The position numbers were made by a program, and so were the translations under genes. Shown here piece after piece: positions 32,018 through 47,189 of a stretch of DNA of 64,000 bases. Position 1 is the stretch's first letter. The number at the start of each line of letters is the position of its first letter. Source of the stretch: an uncultured Myxococcales bacterium (GTDB lineage: Bacteria; Myxococcota_A; Polyangia; Fen-1088). Under the pieces are notes generated by a model, which saw only the letters and a list, made by a program, of their open reading frames with translations, was not told where the DNA came from and ran no database searches. Location: the NCBI GenBank assembly GCA_964540815.1, contig CAZIOH010000003.1, positions 1,685-65,684 on the forward strand, read 5' to 3'.

Positions 32018-33262
32018 TCAGAAGCGCAGCGAGAGGGCGAGCTGGCCGATGTAGGCGCGACGGCGATCGGCGTTCGGCGCCAGGGCGGAGGCGAGCTCGT
32101 AGAAGAGGCCCTCGAACTTGGCGGACAGCTCGATCTCGTTGAAGAGGGTCCTGGCATCCCCTTCAGGCAGGCGCAGGTAGGCCACCTTGCCCCCGAGCAG
32201 GGTGTTCTGCATGGTGGACAGCTCGCGGTCCCCGGTCCAGTACTGCCCGACTGGCCCCGTCAGGCGGTAGCCCTCGGCGTCCCGGTAGAACACCGCCCCC
32301 ACCTGCGAGTGGACCCGGGCCAGGGCCGACAGGATGAGGAAGCGCGTGAGGTACTCGTGAAAGGCGAGCTCGGCCGAGTACGCCTGCAGGGCCCAGGTGT
32401 CACGGTAGACCCGCGCCATGCCCTGCAGGGACGCGTGCAGGGCGGGAACGGCGTAGGCGGCGCGGCCGAAGACCGCGAAGCGCTGGCGCAAGCCGGGCAA
32501 GCTCTCCTGGGGTGTCCGCCCGGCGCTGCCGAGCTCGACCCGCCGGTATGGGTTCGACTGGAAGCCATCCAGGATCTGCACGGTCCCTCCACCTTGCAAG
32601 AGGAGGCGCGGCGTGACGGCCCAGGTGAGCGAGGGCTCGAGCGAGTCGATGTCGAGGTGGCGGGTGACGATCTGGGGATCGCCTTGAAAGCAATGGTCCG
32701 ACTTCACCAGGGCCAGGCGCTCCAGCGGATTGCCCACGGCGGCTGCGTTGTTCCGATCGCACACCCGATCGAAGTTGTGCGTGAAGGACAGCCCCAGCGT
32801 GAAGGCGTGCTCGGCAAAGTCGCTGCGGGTCGCCACGGTCAGCGAATGGGACTGGTAGTCATGCTCCCACCCGTAGCTGTACCCCACGGTCACGTCGGCG
32901 ACCGGGCGGGTGTAGGTCACGCTCCCGCGCACCTGCTGCCGCGTGTCCGAGAACTTGGTCGCCGACGAGACCGCGTCGACCCCGAAGATGACCGGGGTCG
33001 CCCCGGTGACGATGTCCACCGAGTAGCCAGCCGCCAGCTTCACCGACGCGCCGAGCATCGTGTCGACGTCGGTCTGCGGATGGATCACGGTCACCCCGTC
33101 GTTGGTGGACGACGGCTCCCGGAACACCGTGAGGTGCTGCGCCGCCGAGGTCTCCCCCGCCTGCGCTTCCCCCGAGCCGCCCCCCAGGCCGAGCGCCAAG
33201 CCCATCGACACGATCAGCAGCCTCGCCCGGAGCCGCCCCTTCCCGCGCCGGATCAGTTGCAT
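32018..33262 (-). CDS. DUF3570-like outer-membrane protein
   Basis: Signal peptide; VDIVTGATP...DAVSSAT, E.DYQS, GFQSNPYRRV, P.E.LP..RQR, YRDTW, FYRD..Y...DREL motifs; terminal F. Confidence 0.75.
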   Translation of the reverse strand: MQLIRRGKGRLRARLLIVSMGLALGLGGGSGEAQAGETSAAQHLTVFREPSSTNDGVTVIHPQTDVDTMLGASVKLAAGYSVDIVTGATPVIFGVDAVSSATKFSDTRQQVRGSVTYTRPVADVTVGYSYGWEHDYQSHSLTVATRSDFAEHAFTLGLSFTHNFDRVCDRNNAAAVGNPLERLALVKSDHCFQGDPQIVTRHLDIDSLEPSLTWAVTPRLLLQGGGTVQILDGFQSNPYRRVELGSAGRTPQESLPGLRQRFAVFGRAAYAVPALHASLQGMARVYRDTWALQAYSAELAFHEYLTRFLILSALARVHSQVGAVFYRDAEGYRLTGPVGQYWTGDRELSTMQNTLLGGKVAYLRLPEGDARTLFNEIELSAKFEGLFYELASALAPNADRRRAYIGQLALSLRF

Positions 33263-33618
33263 CCGCAGCCGCCTCCGGAGGTGCCCGTGCCGCCGATGGC
33301 CCCCTCCCGGTTCGCGAGCACGTGCTCGTCGGCGGCGCGCTCCTGCGGATCGGCGTCGAAGCGCATGATGCGATCGGCGAGCAGCTCCCGCTGGTGGGCC
33401 TTGACCCCCACATGACCGCATCCGCTGGCGAGCACCGCCGACAGTGCCGCCGCCGCCACCAACCACGGGCGGAAGGCGCGGACATCCGCGCGCAGCCGCC
33501 CGCGAAGACCCTCGCGAACGCGCGCACGCGGCTCAGAAGACGATGGCGAGCGCACCGGTGTACTCCTCCATGCGTTGGGTGTGGTTCGGATCGAAGACCA
33601 CGTAGTGCCGCACGTCAC
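33253..33618 (-). CDS. DUF4266-like small lipoprotein
   Basis: LASGC lipobox; VKAHQRELLADRIM...REGAIGGTGTSGGGCGCN terminus. True start is downstream of 33618 (about 33460-33530). Confidence 0.85.
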   Translation of the reverse strand: MTCGTTWSSIRTTPNAWRSTPVRSPSSSEPRARVREGLRGRLRADVRAFRPWLVAAAALSAVLASGCGHVGVKAHQRELLADRIMRFDADPQERAADEHVLANREGAIGGTGTSGGGCGCN

Positions 33619-34372
33619 CCCGCAACGTCACGCGCTTCTTGAGGGCCACCAGCAGCCCTCCGCCCACGTTGACCACCGCGTAGGTGCCGGTGCGGATGGC
33701 GAACTGGTCGGCCTTCTTGCGACTGGCGGCCCCACCGGCCGCCGCGCCGAGAAAGGGGGTCACGGGCGCGCTCGGAAACACGAACACGTTCGGCCCGCCG
33801 CCGAAGTAGAAGACGTCGAGCTCGTTGCCCACGGTCTCGCCCGCGAAGCCCTCCAGCGACAGGTGCGGCTCGAACAGGAACGCCGGGCGGAAGATGAAGG
33901 CCGAATCTCCCCCGAGGAGTCCGGCCGAGAAGGACAGCCCGAACCGTCCCTCGAGCAGCGGCGATGGCGAGAACACCGCCTCCGAGAGGCGGTGCCACAG
34001 CGAGGGCCCACGGTGGGCCTCCGCCGTGTCGAGGTCGAGCGGGAACACCTCGTCCCCGAGCAACCAACCCCCGGTTCCATCCGGCAGGCGCACCCGGAAC
34101 CAGCTGGCGGACGTCGCGCGCTCGACCACCGGCAGCACCTCGCCCCGCGTCGCCACGTAGACCACCCGGAACGCCGCGCCTGGACCGGTGTGAACGGCGG
34201 CCTGCTCGGCGAGCACGCGCACCAGCGCCTCGTCGTCGGCGCGGGCCTCCGATGGCCAGACGGCCGCTGCGCACAGACAGGCGGCGATCACCAGGATCAG
34301 CCCCGGCGGCCGCGGCCCACCCGGCCGCCGCCGCCCGGGCATCGGCGAGCTCCGGCCCGCACCGGCGCTCAC
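33533..34372 (-). CDS. SH3-like domain plus outer-membrane beta-barrel protein
   Basis: VHTGPGAAFRVV....RGE.L.V.....SWFRVRLPDGTGGW (SH3b-like); alternating beta strands ending YTGALAIVF; GTGA overlap. Confidence 0.75.
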   Translation of the reverse strand: MSAGAGRSSPMPGRRRPGGPRPPGLILVIAACLCAAAVWPSEARADDEALVRVLAEQAAVHTGPGAAFRVVYVATRGEVLPVVERATSASWFRVRLPDGTGGWLLGDEVFPLDLDTAEAHRGPSLWHRLSEAVFSPSPLLEGRFGLSFSAGLLGGDSAFIFRPAFLFEPHLSLEGFAGETVGNELDVFYFGGGPNVFVFPSAPVTPFLGAAAGGAASRKKADQFAIRTGTYAVVNVGGGLLVALKKRVTLRGDVRHYVVFDPNHTQRMEEYTGALAIVF

Positions 34373-45544: not shown

Positions 45545-46299
45545 TCGGTCACCGGCAGGAAGATCCCGATTCCCAGCATGGTCGTCACGTCGTTCACCCA
45601 TTCCTTGCGATCGAGCAACTGCTGCCGATAGGCGTGGTCGCGCAGATCCACGCGCAAGGCCATCGCGCGCCCGAAGAAGAACTTGAGGCCGAGTCCCCCA
45701 TTGCCGGCGATGTCGTTCGAGAGCACCGAGTCGATCACCCCGGCACCGCCCGAGACGTACAGATCGAAGTGAACGAGCGAGCCCCCGAAGCGTAGCTTGC
45801 CGTGGGCCGGATCCCACACCAGGTCGGCGTCGAAGGTCAGCGACCGGCGGCTCTTGCCTGCGAGCAACGAGAACGTCCGCTCGAGCTCGGGTCCCGACGA
45901 CGACATGAGCCGGGTCCAGGTGGCCGCGGTCTCGACCGCGAAATCCTCCGTCATGTGGTAGGCGTACGAGCCTCCGAGGACCCAGGTCCCGTCGAACAGA
46001 TCCGAGGCGTAGTAGCCGCCGGCGACGGTGATCTCGTGCCGGTTGGTCTGCTGGAACAGGCGCTCCCGGACCTCGCGCCGCTTTCGCTTCTCGAAGAGAT
46101 CCGCCCGCACGTTCTCGTCGATGCAAGCGTCGGCGTCGACCACCCCACTGGCCGGCGAGGCGCCCGTGGCGTCGCCAGCTGGGACAGGGCTCGACGACGA
46201 CGGCGACGACGACGACGACGACGACTGGCCCGCTCCCCCACCGACGCCGCCTGCCTCCGCCACGATCAGCAGCCACGCCCCGAAGCCGACGGCCATCAT
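45541..46299 (-). CDS. Myxobacterial outer-membrane beta-barrel (GltA/GltB, NfsA/NfsB-like)
   Basis: QQTNRHEITVAGGYYASDLF, YHMTEDFAVE, WDPAHGKLRF, GLGLKFF..R.MALRVDLRD; ATGA overlap. Confidence 0.75.
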   Translation of the reverse strand: MMAVGFGAWLLIVAEAGGVGGGAGQSSSSSSSPSSSSPVPAGDATGASPASGVVDADACIDENVRADLFEKRKRREVRERLFQQTNRHEITVAGGYYASDLFDGTWVLGGSYAYHMTEDFAVETAATWTRLMSSSGPELERTFSLLAGKSRRSLTFDADLVWDPAHGKLRFGGSLVHFDLYVSGGAGVIDSVLSNDIAGNGGLGLKFFFGRAMALRVDLRDHAYRQQLLDRKEWVNDVTTMLGIGIFLPVTE

Positions 46300-47189
46300 C
46301 CGGGGAACCACCCGCAAAGACCGACCAGGGTGACGATGTTGTGGCTCGTGCGCCCGCGTCCGAGCACCTCCTCTGGGATCGCGAAGTCGCGCAGATCCAG
46401 CCGGATCGAGAGGTAGCGCGCGAGAAAGAGCCTCAGCCCGACACCGACTTGCAAGGTGAGCCCCTGGGCGGTGTCGTTGAAGGTCCGCCCGGCCCCCACC
46501 ACCCACGACAGGTCGGCGTGCGTGATCCGGCGCTCACTCCAGCGCAGCTTGGCGTGAATCGGTGCCCACACCATCGCCCCCAGGGCGTTCCAGGCCATGC
46601 CCGACTGGAAGTGGTGCTCCCGGTCGAAGCCCGTGAACGGCTGCTCGAGGCGAAACTCAACCGGATTGCGGGCGAGCAGGGCCTCCACGCCGAAGTCCTC
46701 CGACAGCCAGAACACCACCGCGGCCCCGTAGGTGTAGGTGGAGGACAGCATGTCGGCGGCGTAGTGGCCACCGAGCAGCGACAGCTCGACGCGGTGTCGC
46801 TTGATGAAATCGCGCTTCTGGACCCCGCGGCGCGCACCGTCGCTGTCGTTCCCACCCTCGCCCTCGAGGCAAGCCAGCGCATGGAGCGCGGCGCCGGGGG
46901 CGGCCCCGGCGTCCGACTCTGATTCTCGAGCCGAGGCGCCGTCACCGTCACCGTCGTCGTCGTCCGCAGCCGCGGCCGCGGCCCCGGACGCTGGAGGTGA
47001 CGGCGTGGCGCGCGCCACCGGGTCGACCTCCGAGGTCGGGCCCGGCGGCGCGGCTTCCTCGAACGGGCTGTCGCCGGCGGCCCCGGGCGGCGACCTGGCG
47101 GCGGCATGCGCGCGCACCTCGAGCGACCATAGAACCACGGGCGGAGCGACCGCCGCGCAGAGGGCGAGGATGACCGTCGCGCGTCCCAA
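46296..47189 (-). CDS. Myxobacterial outer-membrane beta-barrel (GltA/GltB, NfsA/NfsB-like), paralogue of the next gene
   Basis: VQKRDFIKRHRVELSLLGGHYAADML, FWLSEDFGVE, WAPIHAKLRW, VGLRLFLARYLSIRLDLRD. Start uncertain (TTG 47189 chosen because the ORF from 47606 overlaps a divergent gene). Confidence 0.75.
   Translation of the reverse strand: MGRATVILALCAAVAPPVVLWSLEVRAHAAARSPPGAAGDSPFEEAAPPGPTSEVDPVARATPSPPASGAAAAAADDDDGDGDGASARESESDAGAAPGAALHALACLEGEGGNDSDGARRGVQKRDFIKRHRVELSLLGGHYAADMLSSTYTYGAAVVFWLSEDFGVEALLARNPVEFRLEQPFTGFDREHHFQSGMAWNALGAMVWAPIHAKLRWSERRITHADLSWVVGAGRTFNDTAQGLTLQVGVGLRLFLARYLSIRLDLRDFAIPEEVLGRGRTSHNIVTLVGLCGWFPG

What the first reader, a model, noticed from the sequence alone, without database searches (positions are those of the whole stretch)
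32018..47189. 14-gene Nfs/Glt-like trans-envelope machine with six extra genes, converging on heme lipoproteins (best candidate for an undescribed system)
Gene order is barrel, barrel, X, GltC-, GltD-, GltE-, GltF-, GltG-like, lipoprotein, GltH-like, CX4CH lipoprotein, SH3-barrel, DUF4266, DUF3570. The core follows the contiguous nfsA-H layout of Myxococcus, where Glt drives gliding and Nfs spreads spore-coat polysaccharide, both energised by an AglRQS motor (established). Nearly every junction is a start/stop overlap, so this is one unit. The accessory genes (five predicted beta-barrels overall, a putative cytochrome) and the facing HzsA-like operon are not part of the characterised Glt or Nfs systems as I know them. 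No aglRQS, gltI, gltJ or gltK is in the window. Hypothesis: a PMF-driven Glt-type paralogue repurposed to export, position or energise an outer-membrane redox or heme complex rather than for motility.
Basis: partly seen in the sequence, partly recalled or inferred. Interest (0 to 1): 0.82.

Follow-up and report, generated by a model that had tools for sequence, protein, structure and literature searches.

The report
Glt-like envelope machine with redox module
This is a real, conserved 14-gene operon in uncultured Polyangia myxobacteria that joins a distinct relative of the Myxococcus gliding/sporulation envelope machine to an outer-membrane flavin- and heme-type module, a pairing not described before and whose function is unknown.

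Summary

- **Core:** it is Glt-like but meets no Glt equivalog cut-off, and its GltG-like protein has no detectable FHA domain.
- **Phylogeny:** its GltD-like protein sits in a 98%-supported clade. That clade is separate from the mglBA-linked M. xanthus "G4" paralogue and from an A-B-C-D-E-G-H type.
- **Prior cataloguing:** gene order and sizes match Haliangium Hoch_3957-3964, listed in 2011 as Glt homologues of unknown function.
- **Accessory genes are what is new:**
  - DUF3570 is a predicted 16-strand outer-membrane barrel with an invariant ApbE-type flavinylation motif.
  - DUF4266 always ends in GGGCGCN.
  - The CX4CH lipoprotein aligns its motif onto canonical CXXCH in repeat relatives.
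- **Linkage:** this module stays linked to the core in about 40 species genomes, even where it has moved upstream of the core. The HzsA-like di-heme lipoprotein operon is adjacent in most, and inside the operon in one Haliangiales genome.
- **Missing parts:** no motor, ApbE, DsbD or Ccm gene is in the window.

My best reading is a TonB-like, proton-motive-force-driven Glt-type scaffold serving an outer-membrane redox module. The linkage is shown; the coupling is inferred. I rate it a new variant of a known kind.

The parts
46296..47189 (-). G1, GltA/B-type outer-membrane beta-barrel with a long low-complexity N-terminal linker
   Evidence: TIGR04565 OMP_myx_plus 84.6 bits against a cut-off of 60. 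Start TTG 47189 is plausible but not certain. Conserved first gene of the cluster in related loci.
45541..46299 (-). G2, second GltA/B-type outer-membrane beta-barrel
   Evidence: TIGR04565 110.6 bits. 4-nt overlap with G1.
44873..45544 (-). G3 'X', a secreted protein with a coiled-coil and a C-terminal beta-rich domain. No family assigned.
   Evidence: No Pfam, NCBIfam or PDB hit. The local iterative HMM finds it in 65 Glt-like loci, including the mglA-linked G4 clusters of Cystobacterineae.
42945..44876 (-). G4, GltC-like periplasmic TPR protein
   Evidence: NF033756 gliding_GltC 117.7 bits against a cut-off of 450; TPR Pfam hits.
39581..42961 (-). G5, GltD-like long TPR protein. Likely start is 42736, giving 1051 aa.
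   Evidence: TPR_6, TPR_16 and YfiO hits, and tol_pal_ybgF 159.8 bits in 6 stretches. Gene callers give 1051 aa. It falls in the 98% clade in the NJ tree.
38407..39591 (-). G6, GltE-like TPR (lipo)protein
   Evidence: NF033758 gliding_GltE 107.1 bits against a cut-off of 225; many TPR families.
37796..38410 (-). G7, GltF-like small secreted protein. Disordered N-terminal part and a conserved C-terminal ~55 residues.
   Evidence: No library hit. Assigned by position and size. The C-terminus is nearly identical in L017-L019. The local HMM finds it between E and G in 68 loci.
36274..37812 (-). G8, GltG-like TonB-type inner-membrane transducer. Likely start is 37650, giving 458 aa. It has a cytoplasmic N-domain, one hydrophobic segment, a Pro/Lys/Glu-rich spacer and a TonB-C-like tail. 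No FHA domain was detected.
   Evidence: NF033760 GltG 189.8 bits against a cut-off of 650, covering profile positions 182-647 only. NF033768 myxo_SS_tail 103 bits. No Pfam hit on the N-terminal part even at E<=5. Homologues are 455-480 aa.
35456..36277 (-). G9 'L', lipoprotein (lipobox LIGC read by eye) specific to this cluster type
   Evidence: No library or PDB hit. Conserved between G and H in Polyangia, Haliangiales and Nannocystaceae loci.
34821..35459 (-). G10, GltH/CglE-like small outer-membrane barrel
   Evidence: PF13505 OMP_b-brl 33.1 bits. NF033755 gliding_CglE 61.6 bits against a cut-off of 70.
34369..34824 (-). G11, lipoprotein with an invariant CX4CH; probable c-type-heme-like module
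   Evidence: - C23 (lipobox), C38, C63, C68, H69 and C110 are invariant, and H128 is near-invariant, in 41 sequences.
- AF2 pLDDT 82, all-helical.
- No PDB fold or sequence match.
- 199 relatives among 1.84 billion representatives. Repeat-containing relatives carry CXXCH at the aligned position.
- hhalign to the N-terminal repeats of the facing gene D1: probability 51%, E 1.5e-4.
33533..34387 (-). G12, periplasmic SH3 domain fused to a GltA/B-like barrel
   Evidence: PF08239 SH3_3 32.4 bits; weak TIGR04565 hit on the C-terminal part. 65-77% identical across the Polyangia clade.
33253..33555 (-). G13, DUF4266 small lipoprotein ending in GGGCGCN (CXC)
   Evidence: PF14086 71.5 bits. The C-terminus is conserved in 17 of 17 loci (16 read GGGCGCN, L038 reads GGACGCN; CGCN is invariant). 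CXC partner of DUF3570 in PMC8238504.
32018..33262 (-). G14, DUF3570 16-strand outer-membrane barrel with flavinylation motifs
   Evidence: - PF12094 82.8 bits.
- AF2 pLDDT 85.4, pTM 0.81, 16 strands.
- Foldseek matches outer-membrane barrels, best TM 0.47 to AlgE and BcsC.
- D83-x-V-[ST]-G-A-T-P90 is conserved in 60 of 60 sequences. In the second motif the Gly is kept in 24 of 60.
29003..31990 (+). D1, convergent lipoprotein. Three N-terminal C-x4/6-CH modules, a PD40 beta-propeller part, and an HZS_alpha-like C-terminus with CGGCH.
   Evidence: Pfam PD40 and HZS_alpha; motifs. Conserved downstream of the cluster in most Polyangia loci.
27984..28886 (+). HEAT-repeat protein between the two HzsA-like genes
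   Evidence: Gene calls and HEAT_2 in L011 and L018. Weak NblB/CpcE hits. Also next to the HzsA-like gene in L043.
25672..27924 (+). D3, HzsA-like di-heme lipoprotein
   Evidence: - PF18582 HZS_alpha 52.8 bits.
- Hydrazine synthase alpha 5c2v_A, E 1.4e-9, with both CXXCH sites aligned.
- NF052339 only 61 bits against a cut-off of 800.
47311..49215 (+). Divergent neighbour with an IgGFc_binding domain. Context only; its role is unknown.
   Evidence: PF17517 117 bits. The same divergent neighbour is present in about 19 Polyangia loci.

Best explanation
The 14 genes form one conserved operon. It encodes a lineage-specific paralogue of the Glt/Nfs trans-envelope complex of Myxococcota, joined to a four-gene outer-membrane redox module.

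**Core, by analogy with the Agl-Glt structural model**
- G8 is a TonB-like inner-membrane protein. It would be driven by a TolQR/AglRQS-type proton channel encoded elsewhere in the genome.
- Its C-terminal domain docks on the periplasmic TPR proteins D, E and C, with the small protein F as a bridge.
- C holds the outer-membrane barrels A, B and H. Protein X and lipoprotein L are extra parts of unknown role.

**Redox module**
- A 16-strand barrel (DUF3570) that probably carries covalently bound FMN on a long loop.
- A CXC lipoprotein (DUF4266).
- A small lipoprotein with a heme-c-type CX4CH site.
- An SH3-barrel protein.
- In most genomes, HzsA-like heme lipoproteins sit next to the cluster.

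**Most likely mode of action**
The proton-motive-force-driven Glt-type scaffold operates, gates or positions this outer-membrane flavin/heme/thiol module, much as TonB acts on outer-membrane barrels. The system would thus move electrons, or a redox-dependent substrate such as a metal, across or at the outer membrane rather than moving the cell.

**What is shown and what is inferred**
- Shown: gene content, motif conservation and conserved linkage.
- Inferred: cofactor binding, physical coupling, energisation and the substrate.
For: **Operon.** Junctions overlap.

**Glt-type core.** Family-level hits to GltA/B, C, E, G and CglE/H, plus a YbgF-like long TPR protein.

**Separate lineage**
- The GltD-like NJ tree places all window-type clusters in one clade (98% bootstrap; 74% including L050/L051). 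It is apart from the mglA-linked G4 type and from an A-B-C-D-E-G-H type.
- GltG model scores are 190 here, 165-172 for G4 and 344-359 for the FHA-bearing type, against a cut-off of 650.

**Linkage of the accessory module**
- It has the same order in about 20 Polyangia species loci.
- All 18 loci found by anchoring on G11 lie inside a Glt-like cluster.
- In L041, L042 and L047 the module sits upstream of the core, across two sigma-54 activator genes. In L050 and L051 it is interleaved with the barrels.
- Identities of the accessory proteins fall in step with those of the core.

**Redox character**
- DUF3570 is an experimentally flavinylated ApbE substrate and DUF4266 is its CXC partner (PMC8238504).
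- DxV[ST]GATP is conserved in 60/60 sequences and the CXC C-terminus (CGCN) in 17/17 loci. L050/L051 lack both the motif and DUF4266.
- The barrel model places the motifs at and within the long beta3-beta4 connection.
- G11's CX4CH is invariant and aligns to CXXCH in repeat relatives.
- G11 is related to the N-terminal repeats of D1.
- D3 aligns both heme sites of hydrazine synthase alpha.

**HzsA-like genes.** They are adjacent in 11 of the 18 G11-anchored loci, and lie inside the operon on the same strand in Haliangiales L043.

**Architecture by analogy.** PMC11761067 and PMC3169522.
Against: - No TolQR/AglRQS-type motor, ApbE, thioredoxin-like, DsbD or Ccm gene is in the window, or next to the cluster in the relatives inspected.
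- Two relatives with the core (L044, L048) show no accessory module within the sequence held. The core can therefore exist without it.
- The HzsA-like genes are missing next to the cluster in L017, L185 and L187.
- The G11 model matches no solved cytochrome fold, and no cytochrome family hits it. Heme binding by a CX4CH site is only plausible.
- The second flavinylation motif is degenerate in most members.
- Linkage alone cannot tell physical coupling from co-regulation of envelope proteins.
- No bona fide M. xanthus Glt or Nfs sequence could be put in the tree.
Confidence: 0.5

Rival explanations
1. Two independent systems share an operon or neighbourhood: a Glt-like paralogue of unknown role, and a separate DUF4266/DUF3570-type extracytosolic redox set with heme lipoproteins. 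On this view they have no physical or functional coupling.
For: - DUF3570/DUF4266 occur widely without any Glt genes, usually with ApbE, a thioredoxin-like protein and DsbD.
- L044 and L048 have the core without the module.
- In L041, L042 and L047 the two parts are separate transcription units, divided by regulator genes.
Against: - Linkage survives at least three different arrangements, across GltD identities from 74% down to 33%.
- In L050 and L051 the genes are interleaved.
- G11 was found only inside such clusters in the genome scan.
- In the window the junctions G10-G11 and G13-G14 overlap.
Confidence: 0.2
2. It is this lineage's working gliding or spore-coat machine, the functional equivalent of Glt or Nfs. 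The extra genes would be lineage-specific outer-membrane platform parts, like GltK and CglC-F in Myxococcus.
For: - Gene order A-B-(X)-C-D-E-F-G-(L)-H follows nfsA-H.
- G10 is CglE/GltH-like.
- Luciano et al. suggested that bacteria with AglRQS plus GltA-G may glide.
Against: - All equivalog cut-offs are missed by a wide margin.
- No FHA domain is detected on G8, and no GltI/GltJ-type gene is present, so the cytoplasmic coupling used by Glt is missing.
- Sorangium's Glt-type cluster, with FHA-GltG and GltI, is a different type. Haliangium carries four sets, of which Hoch_3957-3964 is only one.
- Redox motifs have no known place in Glt or Nfs.
Confidence: 0.15
3. It is an envelope-maintenance system of the Tol-Pal kind. 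The TonB/TolA-like protein and YbgF-like TPR proteins would tether or remodel the outer membrane. The thiol/flavin/heme proteins would serve oxidative folding or repair of outer-membrane proteins.
For: - G5 scores 160 bits on the YbgF model and also hits BamD/CpoB-type models.
- DUF3570/DUF4266 sets are usually fed by DsbD and thioredoxin-like proteins.
Against: - The TPR hits are generic repeats.
- The specific best matches are to the Glt family.
- No DsbD or thioredoxin-like gene is linked.
- Nothing ties HzsA-like proteins to envelope repair, and their function is unknown.
Confidence: 0.1

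Closest known systems
Agl-Glt gliding transducer of Myxococcus xanthus (GltA-K with AglRQS)
   Same: - The same protein kinds are present: OM barrels A/B/H, periplasmic TPR proteins C/D/E, small F, and a TonB-C-like inner-membrane G.
- The motor genes are unlinked, as in M. 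xanthus.
   Different: - Scores are far below the GltC/E/G equivalog cut-offs.
- G has no FHA domain.
- There is no GltI, GltJ or CglB-type gene.
- It has extra X, L and the four-gene redox module.
Nfs spore-coat machine (nfsA-H, MXAN_3371-3378)
   Same: Contiguous one-operon layout in the order A, B, C, D, E, F, G, H.
   Different: - X is inserted between B and C, and L between G and H.
- NfsG is a 682-aa FHA/TonB protein, whereas G8 is 458 aa without FHA.
- No Nfs sequence was available for a direct comparison.
M. xanthus G4 paralogue cluster (MXAN_1919-1923, next to mglBA), function unknown
   Same: - Shares the X gene and a short GltG of about 450 aa without FHA.
- It is the best-scoring relative in Cystobacterineae genomes.
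   Different: - G4 has no A/B/H barrels, no L and no redox module, and is linked to mglBA.
- Its GltD falls in a different clade.
Haliangium ochraceum Hoch_3957-3964 (listed as Glt homologues in Luciano et al. 2011, Table S3)
   Same: Same order and very similar sizes: 228, 268, [3959 not listed], 689, 1058, 395, 185 and 474 aa, against 297, 252, 223, 643, 1051, 394, 204 and 458 aa here. A Haliangiales genome (L043) falls in the same GltD clade.
   Different: - Only the Glt-homologous genes were tabulated. X, L, H and the redox genes were not noted, and no function was proposed.
- Identity of the cluster type rests on order and size, not on a sequence comparison made here.
DUF3570/DUF4266 flavinylation-associated system (Meheust et al. 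2021, eLife)
   Same: DUF3570 with the ApbE-type motif and DUF4266 with a C-terminal CXC, encoded side by side.
   Different: - No ApbE, thioredoxin-like or DsbD gene is linked.
- Instead the pair is embedded in a Glt-like operon with a CX4CH lipoprotein and an SH3-barrel.
Hydrazine synthase alpha subunit (PDB 5C2V chain A) and its non-anammox homologues
   Same: D3 shares the HZS_alpha middle domain and both CXXCH sites.
   Different: - It scores 61 bits against a cut-off of 800 on the equivalog model.
- It is a lipoprotein in a myxobacterium, with no beta or gamma subunits.
- Such homologues have no tested function.

Membership tests
Agl-Glt gliding machinery | GltC, GltE and GltG reach NCBIfam equivalog cut-offs (orthology to the gliding proteins) | tested here: not met
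   117.7 of 450, 107.1 of 225 and 189.8 of 650 bits.
Agl-Glt gliding machinery | GltG carries a cytoplasmic FHA domain that couples to GltI | tested here: not met
   The match covers GltG profile positions 182-647 only. There is no Pfam hit on the N-terminal part at E<=5. FHA-bearing relatives match positions 5-647.
Agl-Glt gliding machinery | GltI, GltJ, GltK and CglB present | tested here: not met
   In the window, the GltJ model hits only the shared C-terminal tail of G8. There is no giant TPR gene and no VWA lipoprotein among the ORFs scanned. GltK has no model. The rest of the genome was not available.
Agl-Glt gliding machinery | AglRQS (TolQR-type) motor in the genome | not testable with these tools
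   None in the 64-kb window. The genome beyond the window could not be read.
Glt/Nfs-like superfamily (core GltC-D-E-G with GltA/B/F/H) | Co-located homologues of GltC, D, E and G plus Myxococcota-type barrels | tested here: met
   Family-level hits for all of these. Conserved order in about 40 species genomes.
Nfs sporulation machinery | Contiguous A-H operon | tested here: inconclusive
   The order is kept, but with X and L inserted and four genes appended.
Nfs sporulation machinery | FHA/TonB NfsG and close sequence relationship to glt | tested here: not met
   G8 has no detectable FHA domain and scores no higher on the GltG model than G4-type proteins do. A direct comparison with Nfs sequences was not possible.
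M. xanthus G4 paralogue | X-C-D-E-F-G next to mglBA, with no outer-membrane barrels | tested here: not met
   The window has A, B and H barrels and no mglA. Its GltD lies in a separate 98% clade.
Haliangium Hoch_3957-3964 cluster type | Same gene order and protein sizes | tested here: met
   Table S3 of PMC3169522 compared with the window's gene lengths. Sequence identity was not tested.
DUF3570/DUF4266 flavinylation system | DUF3570 with a [S/T]GA[S/T] flavinylation motif | tested here: met
   DxV[ST]GATP in 60 of 60 sequences. The second motif keeps its Gly in 24 of 60.
DUF3570/DUF4266 flavinylation system | Adjacent DUF4266 with a C-terminal CXC | tested here: met
   PF14086 71.5 bits. The CXC C-terminus is conserved in 17 of 17 loci: GGGCGCN in 16, GGACGCN in L038.
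DUF3570/DUF4266 flavinylation system | ApbE, thioredoxin-like protein and often DsbD in the gene cluster | tested here: not met
   None in the cluster or the window. Whether they are present elsewhere in the genome is unknown.
DUF3570/DUF4266 flavinylation system | Covalent FMN on the protein | not testable with these tools
   Needs co-expression with ApbE and detection of flavin fluorescence or mass.
c-type cytochrome (for G11) | CXXCH heme-attachment site in an exported protein | tested here: inconclusive
   CX4CH in place of CXXCH; invariant. It aligns onto CXXCH of repeat relatives. A lipoprotein signal is seen by eye. No cytochrome family or fold match.
Hydrazine synthase alpha (for D3) | Equivalog-level similarity and partner beta/gamma subunits | tested here: not met
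   61 bits against a cut-off of 800. Only the middle domain and the two heme sites are shared.

The most novel reading that the evidence does not exclude
A TolQR-type, proton-motive-force-driven Glt-like shaft is the energising or gating partner of an outer-membrane electron conduit. The conduit would be built from a covalently flavinylated 16-strand barrel, a CXC lipoprotein and CX4CH/CXXCH heme lipoproteins. That would be a new class of envelope-spanning redox machine. It could also hint at the unknown ancestral job of the widespread GltC-D-E-G/AglRQS core complex.
Probability: 0.25. Interest if true: 0.85.

Novelty: new variant of a known kind. Interest (0 to 1): 0.62.

Why it matters
Glt-like clusters are numerous, but only two (gliding and spore coat) have a known job. 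The function of the ancestral core complex has been an open question since 2011.

This clade gives the first concrete lead. It shows a stable genetic tie between a Glt-type scaffold and proteins with recognisable redox cofactor sites at the outer membrane.

If the tie is functional, three things follow:
- the known uses of TolQR/TonB-like energy transduction would widen to include outer-membrane electron transfer or redox-dependent uptake;
- DUF3570/DUF4266 and the non-anammox HzsA homologues would gain a cellular context;
- there would be a testable system, because Haliangium ochraceum appears to carry the same cluster type and can be grown.

Tried and rejected
- **PSCyt1 idea.** I recalled that G11 resembles the planctomycete cytochrome domain PSCyt1. 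Pfam gave no hit even at E<=5, so I dropped the name.
- **G11 fold.** Foldseek of the G11 model against PDB gave nothing, and the profile search of PDB sequences also gave nothing.
- **G11 against D3.** The G11 profile against the D3 C-terminal heme domain showed no similarity.
- **Fetching M. xanthus Glt/Nfs loci.**
  - A single-protein scan with G8 found only distant loci.
  - A scan seeded with the FHA-bearing A-B-C-D-E-G-H type returned an uncultured aquatic lineage instead.
- **Exact-sequence look-up.** The look-up for window 12388-13380 failed, probably because of the start codon I chose.
- **PDB sequence searches.** Searches for G3, G8, G9 and D1 gave no meaningful hits.
- **Motor genes.** Genes downstream of G in L040, L042 and L047 are housekeeping genes.
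- **Sigma-54 promoter.** There is a GG-N10-GC element upstream of G1. The same strict pattern occurs in only about half of the related loci and is easy to get by chance at 70% GC, so it stays a lead only.
- **Myxobacterial entries.** The flavinylation paper's supplements held no myxobacterial entries.

Full report
**Observation**

The window is about 70% G+C. A third-position GC frame plot on the minus strand shows an unbroken series of coding frames from 47189 down to 32018. ORF tables and translations give 14 genes. With the longest possible starts, all 13 junctions overlap by 4-23 nt. With the starts chosen by public gene callers for identical contigs, 9 of 13 overlap and the largest gap is 208 nt.

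**What the genes are**

Pfam and NCBIfam give these matches:
- G1 and G2 are TIGR04565 'OMP_myx_plus' barrels, the GltA/B kind.
- G4 matches GltC (118 bits, cut-off 450).
- G5 is a 1051-1126-aa TPR protein with six YbgF-like stretches.
- G6 matches GltE (107 bits, cut-off 225).
- G8 matches GltG (190 bits, cut-off 650) and the AgmX/PglI C-terminal TonB-like tail (103 bits).
- G10 matches OMP_b-brl and CglE (61.6 bits, cut-off 70).
- G12 has an SH3_3 domain and a weak GltA/B-like barrel hit.
- G13 is DUF4266 and G14 is DUF3570.
- G3 (X), G7 (F-like), G9 (lipoprotein L) and G11 (CX4CH lipoprotein) hit nothing, even at E<=5.

G8 aligns only to positions 182-647 of the GltG model, so the FHA part is absent. 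Relatives of about 670 aa from another cluster type align from position 5 and score 344-359.

**Surroundings**

Three plus-strand genes converge on the cluster:
- D3 (25672-27924) is a lipoprotein with an HZS_alpha domain and two CXXCH sites.
- A HEAT-repeat protein lies at 27984-28886.
- D1 (29003-31990) is a lipoprotein with three N-terminal C-x4/6-CH modules, a PD40 part and a C-terminal CGGCH.

D3 aligns to hydrazine synthase alpha (5C2V chain A, E 1.4e-9) with both heme sites matched. It scores only 61 of the 800 bits needed on the equivalog model. Homologues of HzsA outside anammox bacteria have no tested function (PMC12758564).

A gene with an IgGFc_binding domain lies upstream and divergent.

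About 45 high-GC3 ORFs of the window (20 outside the cluster and its immediate flanks) were scanned. None has a MotA/TolQ/ExbB, ExbD, ApbE, DsbD or Ccm domain.

**Conservation**

Identical contigs occur in several metagenomes. Contigs encoding GltG-like proteins 47-62% identical to G8 keep all 14 genes in order.

A scan of one genome per species with a GltD-like alignment returned 80 loci. I built local iterative HMMs of the 14 proteins and ran them over six-frame ORFs to get gene maps:
- **Polyangia.** About 20 Polyangia genomes (GltD 60-67% identical) show IgGFc(-) | A B X C D E F G L H cyt SH3 DUF4266 DUF3570 | HzsA-like(-).
- **Module upstream.** Genomes at 44-49% GltD identity (L041, L042, L047) carry cyt-SH3-DUF4266-DUF3570 upstream of A B X C D E F G. 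Two sigma-54 activator genes on the other strand separate the two parts.
- **Interleaved.** L050 and L051 (33% identity) interleave the genes.
- **Haliangiales.** L043 has A X C D E G L H, then an HzsA-like gene and a HEAT gene on the same strand, then cyt-SH3-DUF4266.
- **Core only.** L044 and L048 have the core including L and H, but no accessory module in the sequence held.

A scan anchored on G11 found 18 loci, all inside such clusters. Eleven of them have the two HzsA-like genes downstream. Across these scans the cluster type was seen in about 40 species-level genomes. Identities of the accessory proteins fall in parallel with those of the core, which points to joint vertical inheritance.

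**Place among Glt-like clusters**

The best Cystobacterineae loci are X-C-D-E-F-G with a GltG of about 450 aa. A tblastn search with MglA, a sequence I wrote from memory, hit 84-99% identical genes just upstream of X in 24 of them. Table S3 of Luciano et al. 2011 lists MXAN_1919-1923 beside mglA/mglB (MXAN_1925/1926) as cluster G4. These loci are therefore G4. Its function is unknown and disrupting it gave no motility defect.

A third type, A-B-C-D-E-G-H with FHA-GltG, dominates an uncultured aquatic lineage. Those genomes also carry an X-C-D-E-G set.

I built a neighbour-joining tree of 60 GltD-like proteins (943 columns, 100 bootstraps, gammaproteobacterial outgroup). It groups all window-type clusters at 98% (74% with L050/L051), apart from both other types.

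The same table lists Haliangium Hoch_3957, 3958, 3960-3964 with sizes that mirror G1, G2 and G4-G8. It skips 3959, where X would be. Haliangium has three further sets, and the Sorangium Glt-type cluster is of another kind. The core of this cluster type was therefore catalogued in 2011 as 'Glt homologues', with no function and no mention of the other genes.

I could not fetch M. xanthus Glt or Nfs sequences. 'Not Glt/Nfs' therefore rests on the missed equivalog cut-offs, the missing FHA domain, the lack of GltI/J and the Haliangium and Sorangium inventories, not on a complete tree.

**The accessory module**

*DUF3570 and DUF4266.* Meheust et al. (PMC8238504) showed that DUF3570 is flavinylated by ApbE at two [S/T]GA[S/T] sites. 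They also showed that it usually sits with DUF4266 (a small secreted CXC protein), ApbE, a thioredoxin-like protein and often DsbD. The function remains uncertain.

- Motif 1 (D83-x-V-[ST]-G-A-T-P90) is conserved in 60 of 60 homologues here.
- Motif 2 keeps its Gly in 24 of 60.
- The DUF4266 CXC C-terminus is conserved in 17 of 17 loci: 16 read GGGCGCN and L038 reads GGACGCN.
- The two loci without DUF4266 have a DUF3570-like barrel without the motif.

The AlphaFold2 model of G14 (pLDDT 85, pTM 0.81) is a 16-strand barrel. Motif 1 ends strand 3 and motif 2 lies in the 14-residue beta3-beta4 connection. Odd-numbered connections are long and even-numbered ones short. By the usual rule for outer-membrane barrels, that puts the motifs on the cell-surface or lumen side; this is an inference. 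Foldseek finds only generic outer-membrane barrels, best AlgE and BcsC at TM 0.47.

*G11.* Its family is small: 52 clusters in the word-indexed search, all unnamed. A full HMMER pass over 1.84 billion representatives gave 199 hits.

- The lipobox Cys, C38, C63-x4-C68-H69 and C110 are invariant, and H128 is nearly so.
- Larger relatives contain 2-9 copies of the module. They carry canonical CXXCH exactly where G11 has CX4CH, aligned with a two-residue gap.
- The G11 profile aligns over 96 columns to the third N-terminal repeat of D1 (hhalign probability 51%, E 1.5e-4).
- Its AlphaFold2 model (pLDDT 82) is helical and matches no solved structure.

I read G11 as a probable single-heme lipoprotein of an undescribed cytochrome-like repeat family. 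Heme binding is not shown.

**Mechanism**

The current structural model of Agl-Glt has these parts (PMC11761067; PMC3169522):
- GltA/B/H barrels are held by GltC.
- GltF bridges GltC to the TonB-like tail of GltG.
- GltD and GltE form the periplasmic body.
- AglRQS is a TolQR-like motor at GltG.

Every one of these parts has a counterpart in the window except the motor, which is also unlinked in M. xanthus. G8 has the TonB layout: one hydrophobic segment, a Pro/Lys/Glu-rich spacer and a TonB-C-like tail (read by eye).

My best account is a Glt-type scaffold driven by proton-motive force. Its outer-membrane end is associated with a flavin barrel, a CXC lipoprotein and heme-type lipoproteins, which it gates, positions or energises. 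Gene content, motif conservation and linkage are shown. Cofactors, contacts, energisation and substrate are inferred. I put this at about 0.5.

Rivals, with my estimates:
- two independent systems that happen to be neighbours (0.2);
- a true gliding or spore-coat machine with lineage-specific outer-membrane parts (0.15);
- a Tol-Pal-like envelope system with redox quality control (0.1).

**Verdict**

- It is a new variant of a known kind: a separate, conserved branch of the Glt/Nfs-like family whose core was listed but never studied. Its stable tie to DUF3570/DUF4266, a CX4CH module and HzsA-like lipoproteins is new, as far as the searched literature shows.
- Interest is 0.62. A specialist would find the redox link surprising, and it can be tested in Haliangium. 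All evidence so far is comparative, however, and the key partners (motor, ApbE) were not seen.

Noticed in passing
window 14104-15702 (-); window ~47222-47237 (-); L041 3329-6033, L042 4081-5739, L047 3037-5792: An FHA-type sigma-54 activator lies 16 kb from the cluster. In three distant relatives, an FHA-type and a response-regulator-type sigma-54 activator sit between the accessory module and the core. A GG-N10-GC element (GGGGTCGTGCCTTGCC) lies about 35-50 nt upstream of the G1 start. The strict pattern recurs in only about half of the related loci.
   Followed up: partly
window 47311-49215 (+): A gene with an IgGFc_binding domain is transcribed divergently from G1. It is kept in that position in about 19 Polyangia loci, at 33-41% identity. 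It could be a surface cargo or partner of the machine.
   Followed up: partly
window 27984-28886 (+); L043 19819-20661: The HEAT-repeat protein between the two HzsA-like genes has weak hits to bilin-lyase-type HEAT proteins (NblB, CpcE). It travels with the HzsA-like gene in a Haliangiales genome. A role in cofactor attachment to the unusual C-x4-CH sites is conceivable but untested.
   Followed up: no
L050 5809-7422 and L051 5650-7506: In these two distant relatives the DUF3570-like barrel has lost the [ST]GA[ST] motif and there is no DUF4266 gene. This suggests the flavin site and the CXC protein depend on each other.
   Followed up: partly
L052-L098 (24 Cystobacterineae loci), e.g. L079 5839-16185: mglA lies immediately upstream of X-C-D-E-F-G (the M. 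xanthus G4 cluster). The X gene, which would be MXAN_1924, is a conserved member that Luciano et al. did not list.
   Followed up: partly
proteins P0321-P0442, e.g. P0360, P0322, P0334: The G11 module defines a small, apparently uncurated repeat family. Multi-repeat proteins of up to 2799 aa carry one CXXCH per repeat, while small members carry CX4CH or CX5CH. No Pfam model matches the window's member.
   Followed up: partly
L100-L175: An uncultured, mostly aquatic Myxococcota lineage (many bins are mislabelled Enterobacterales or Klebsiella) carries an nfs-like A-B-C-D-E-G-H cluster with FHA-GltG. In the same genomes there is also an X-C-D-E-G cluster.
   Followed up: partly
window 19615-25573 (-): A 1382-aa protein with 11 or more RCC1 repeats sits next to a Ser/Thr protein kinase, just upstream of the HzsA-like genes.
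   Followed up: no
window 56000-62000: This stretch has lower G+C (0.63-0.65 against about 0.70). Its long ORFs (56175-57632, 57655-58494, 58574-60043) have no Pfam hit. It may be acquired DNA.
   Followed up: no
window 9611-11823 (-) and 7700-8254 (-): Two adjacent SPFH/Band 7 genes and an AhpC/TSA peroxiredoxin. They appear unrelated to the cluster.
   Followed up: no
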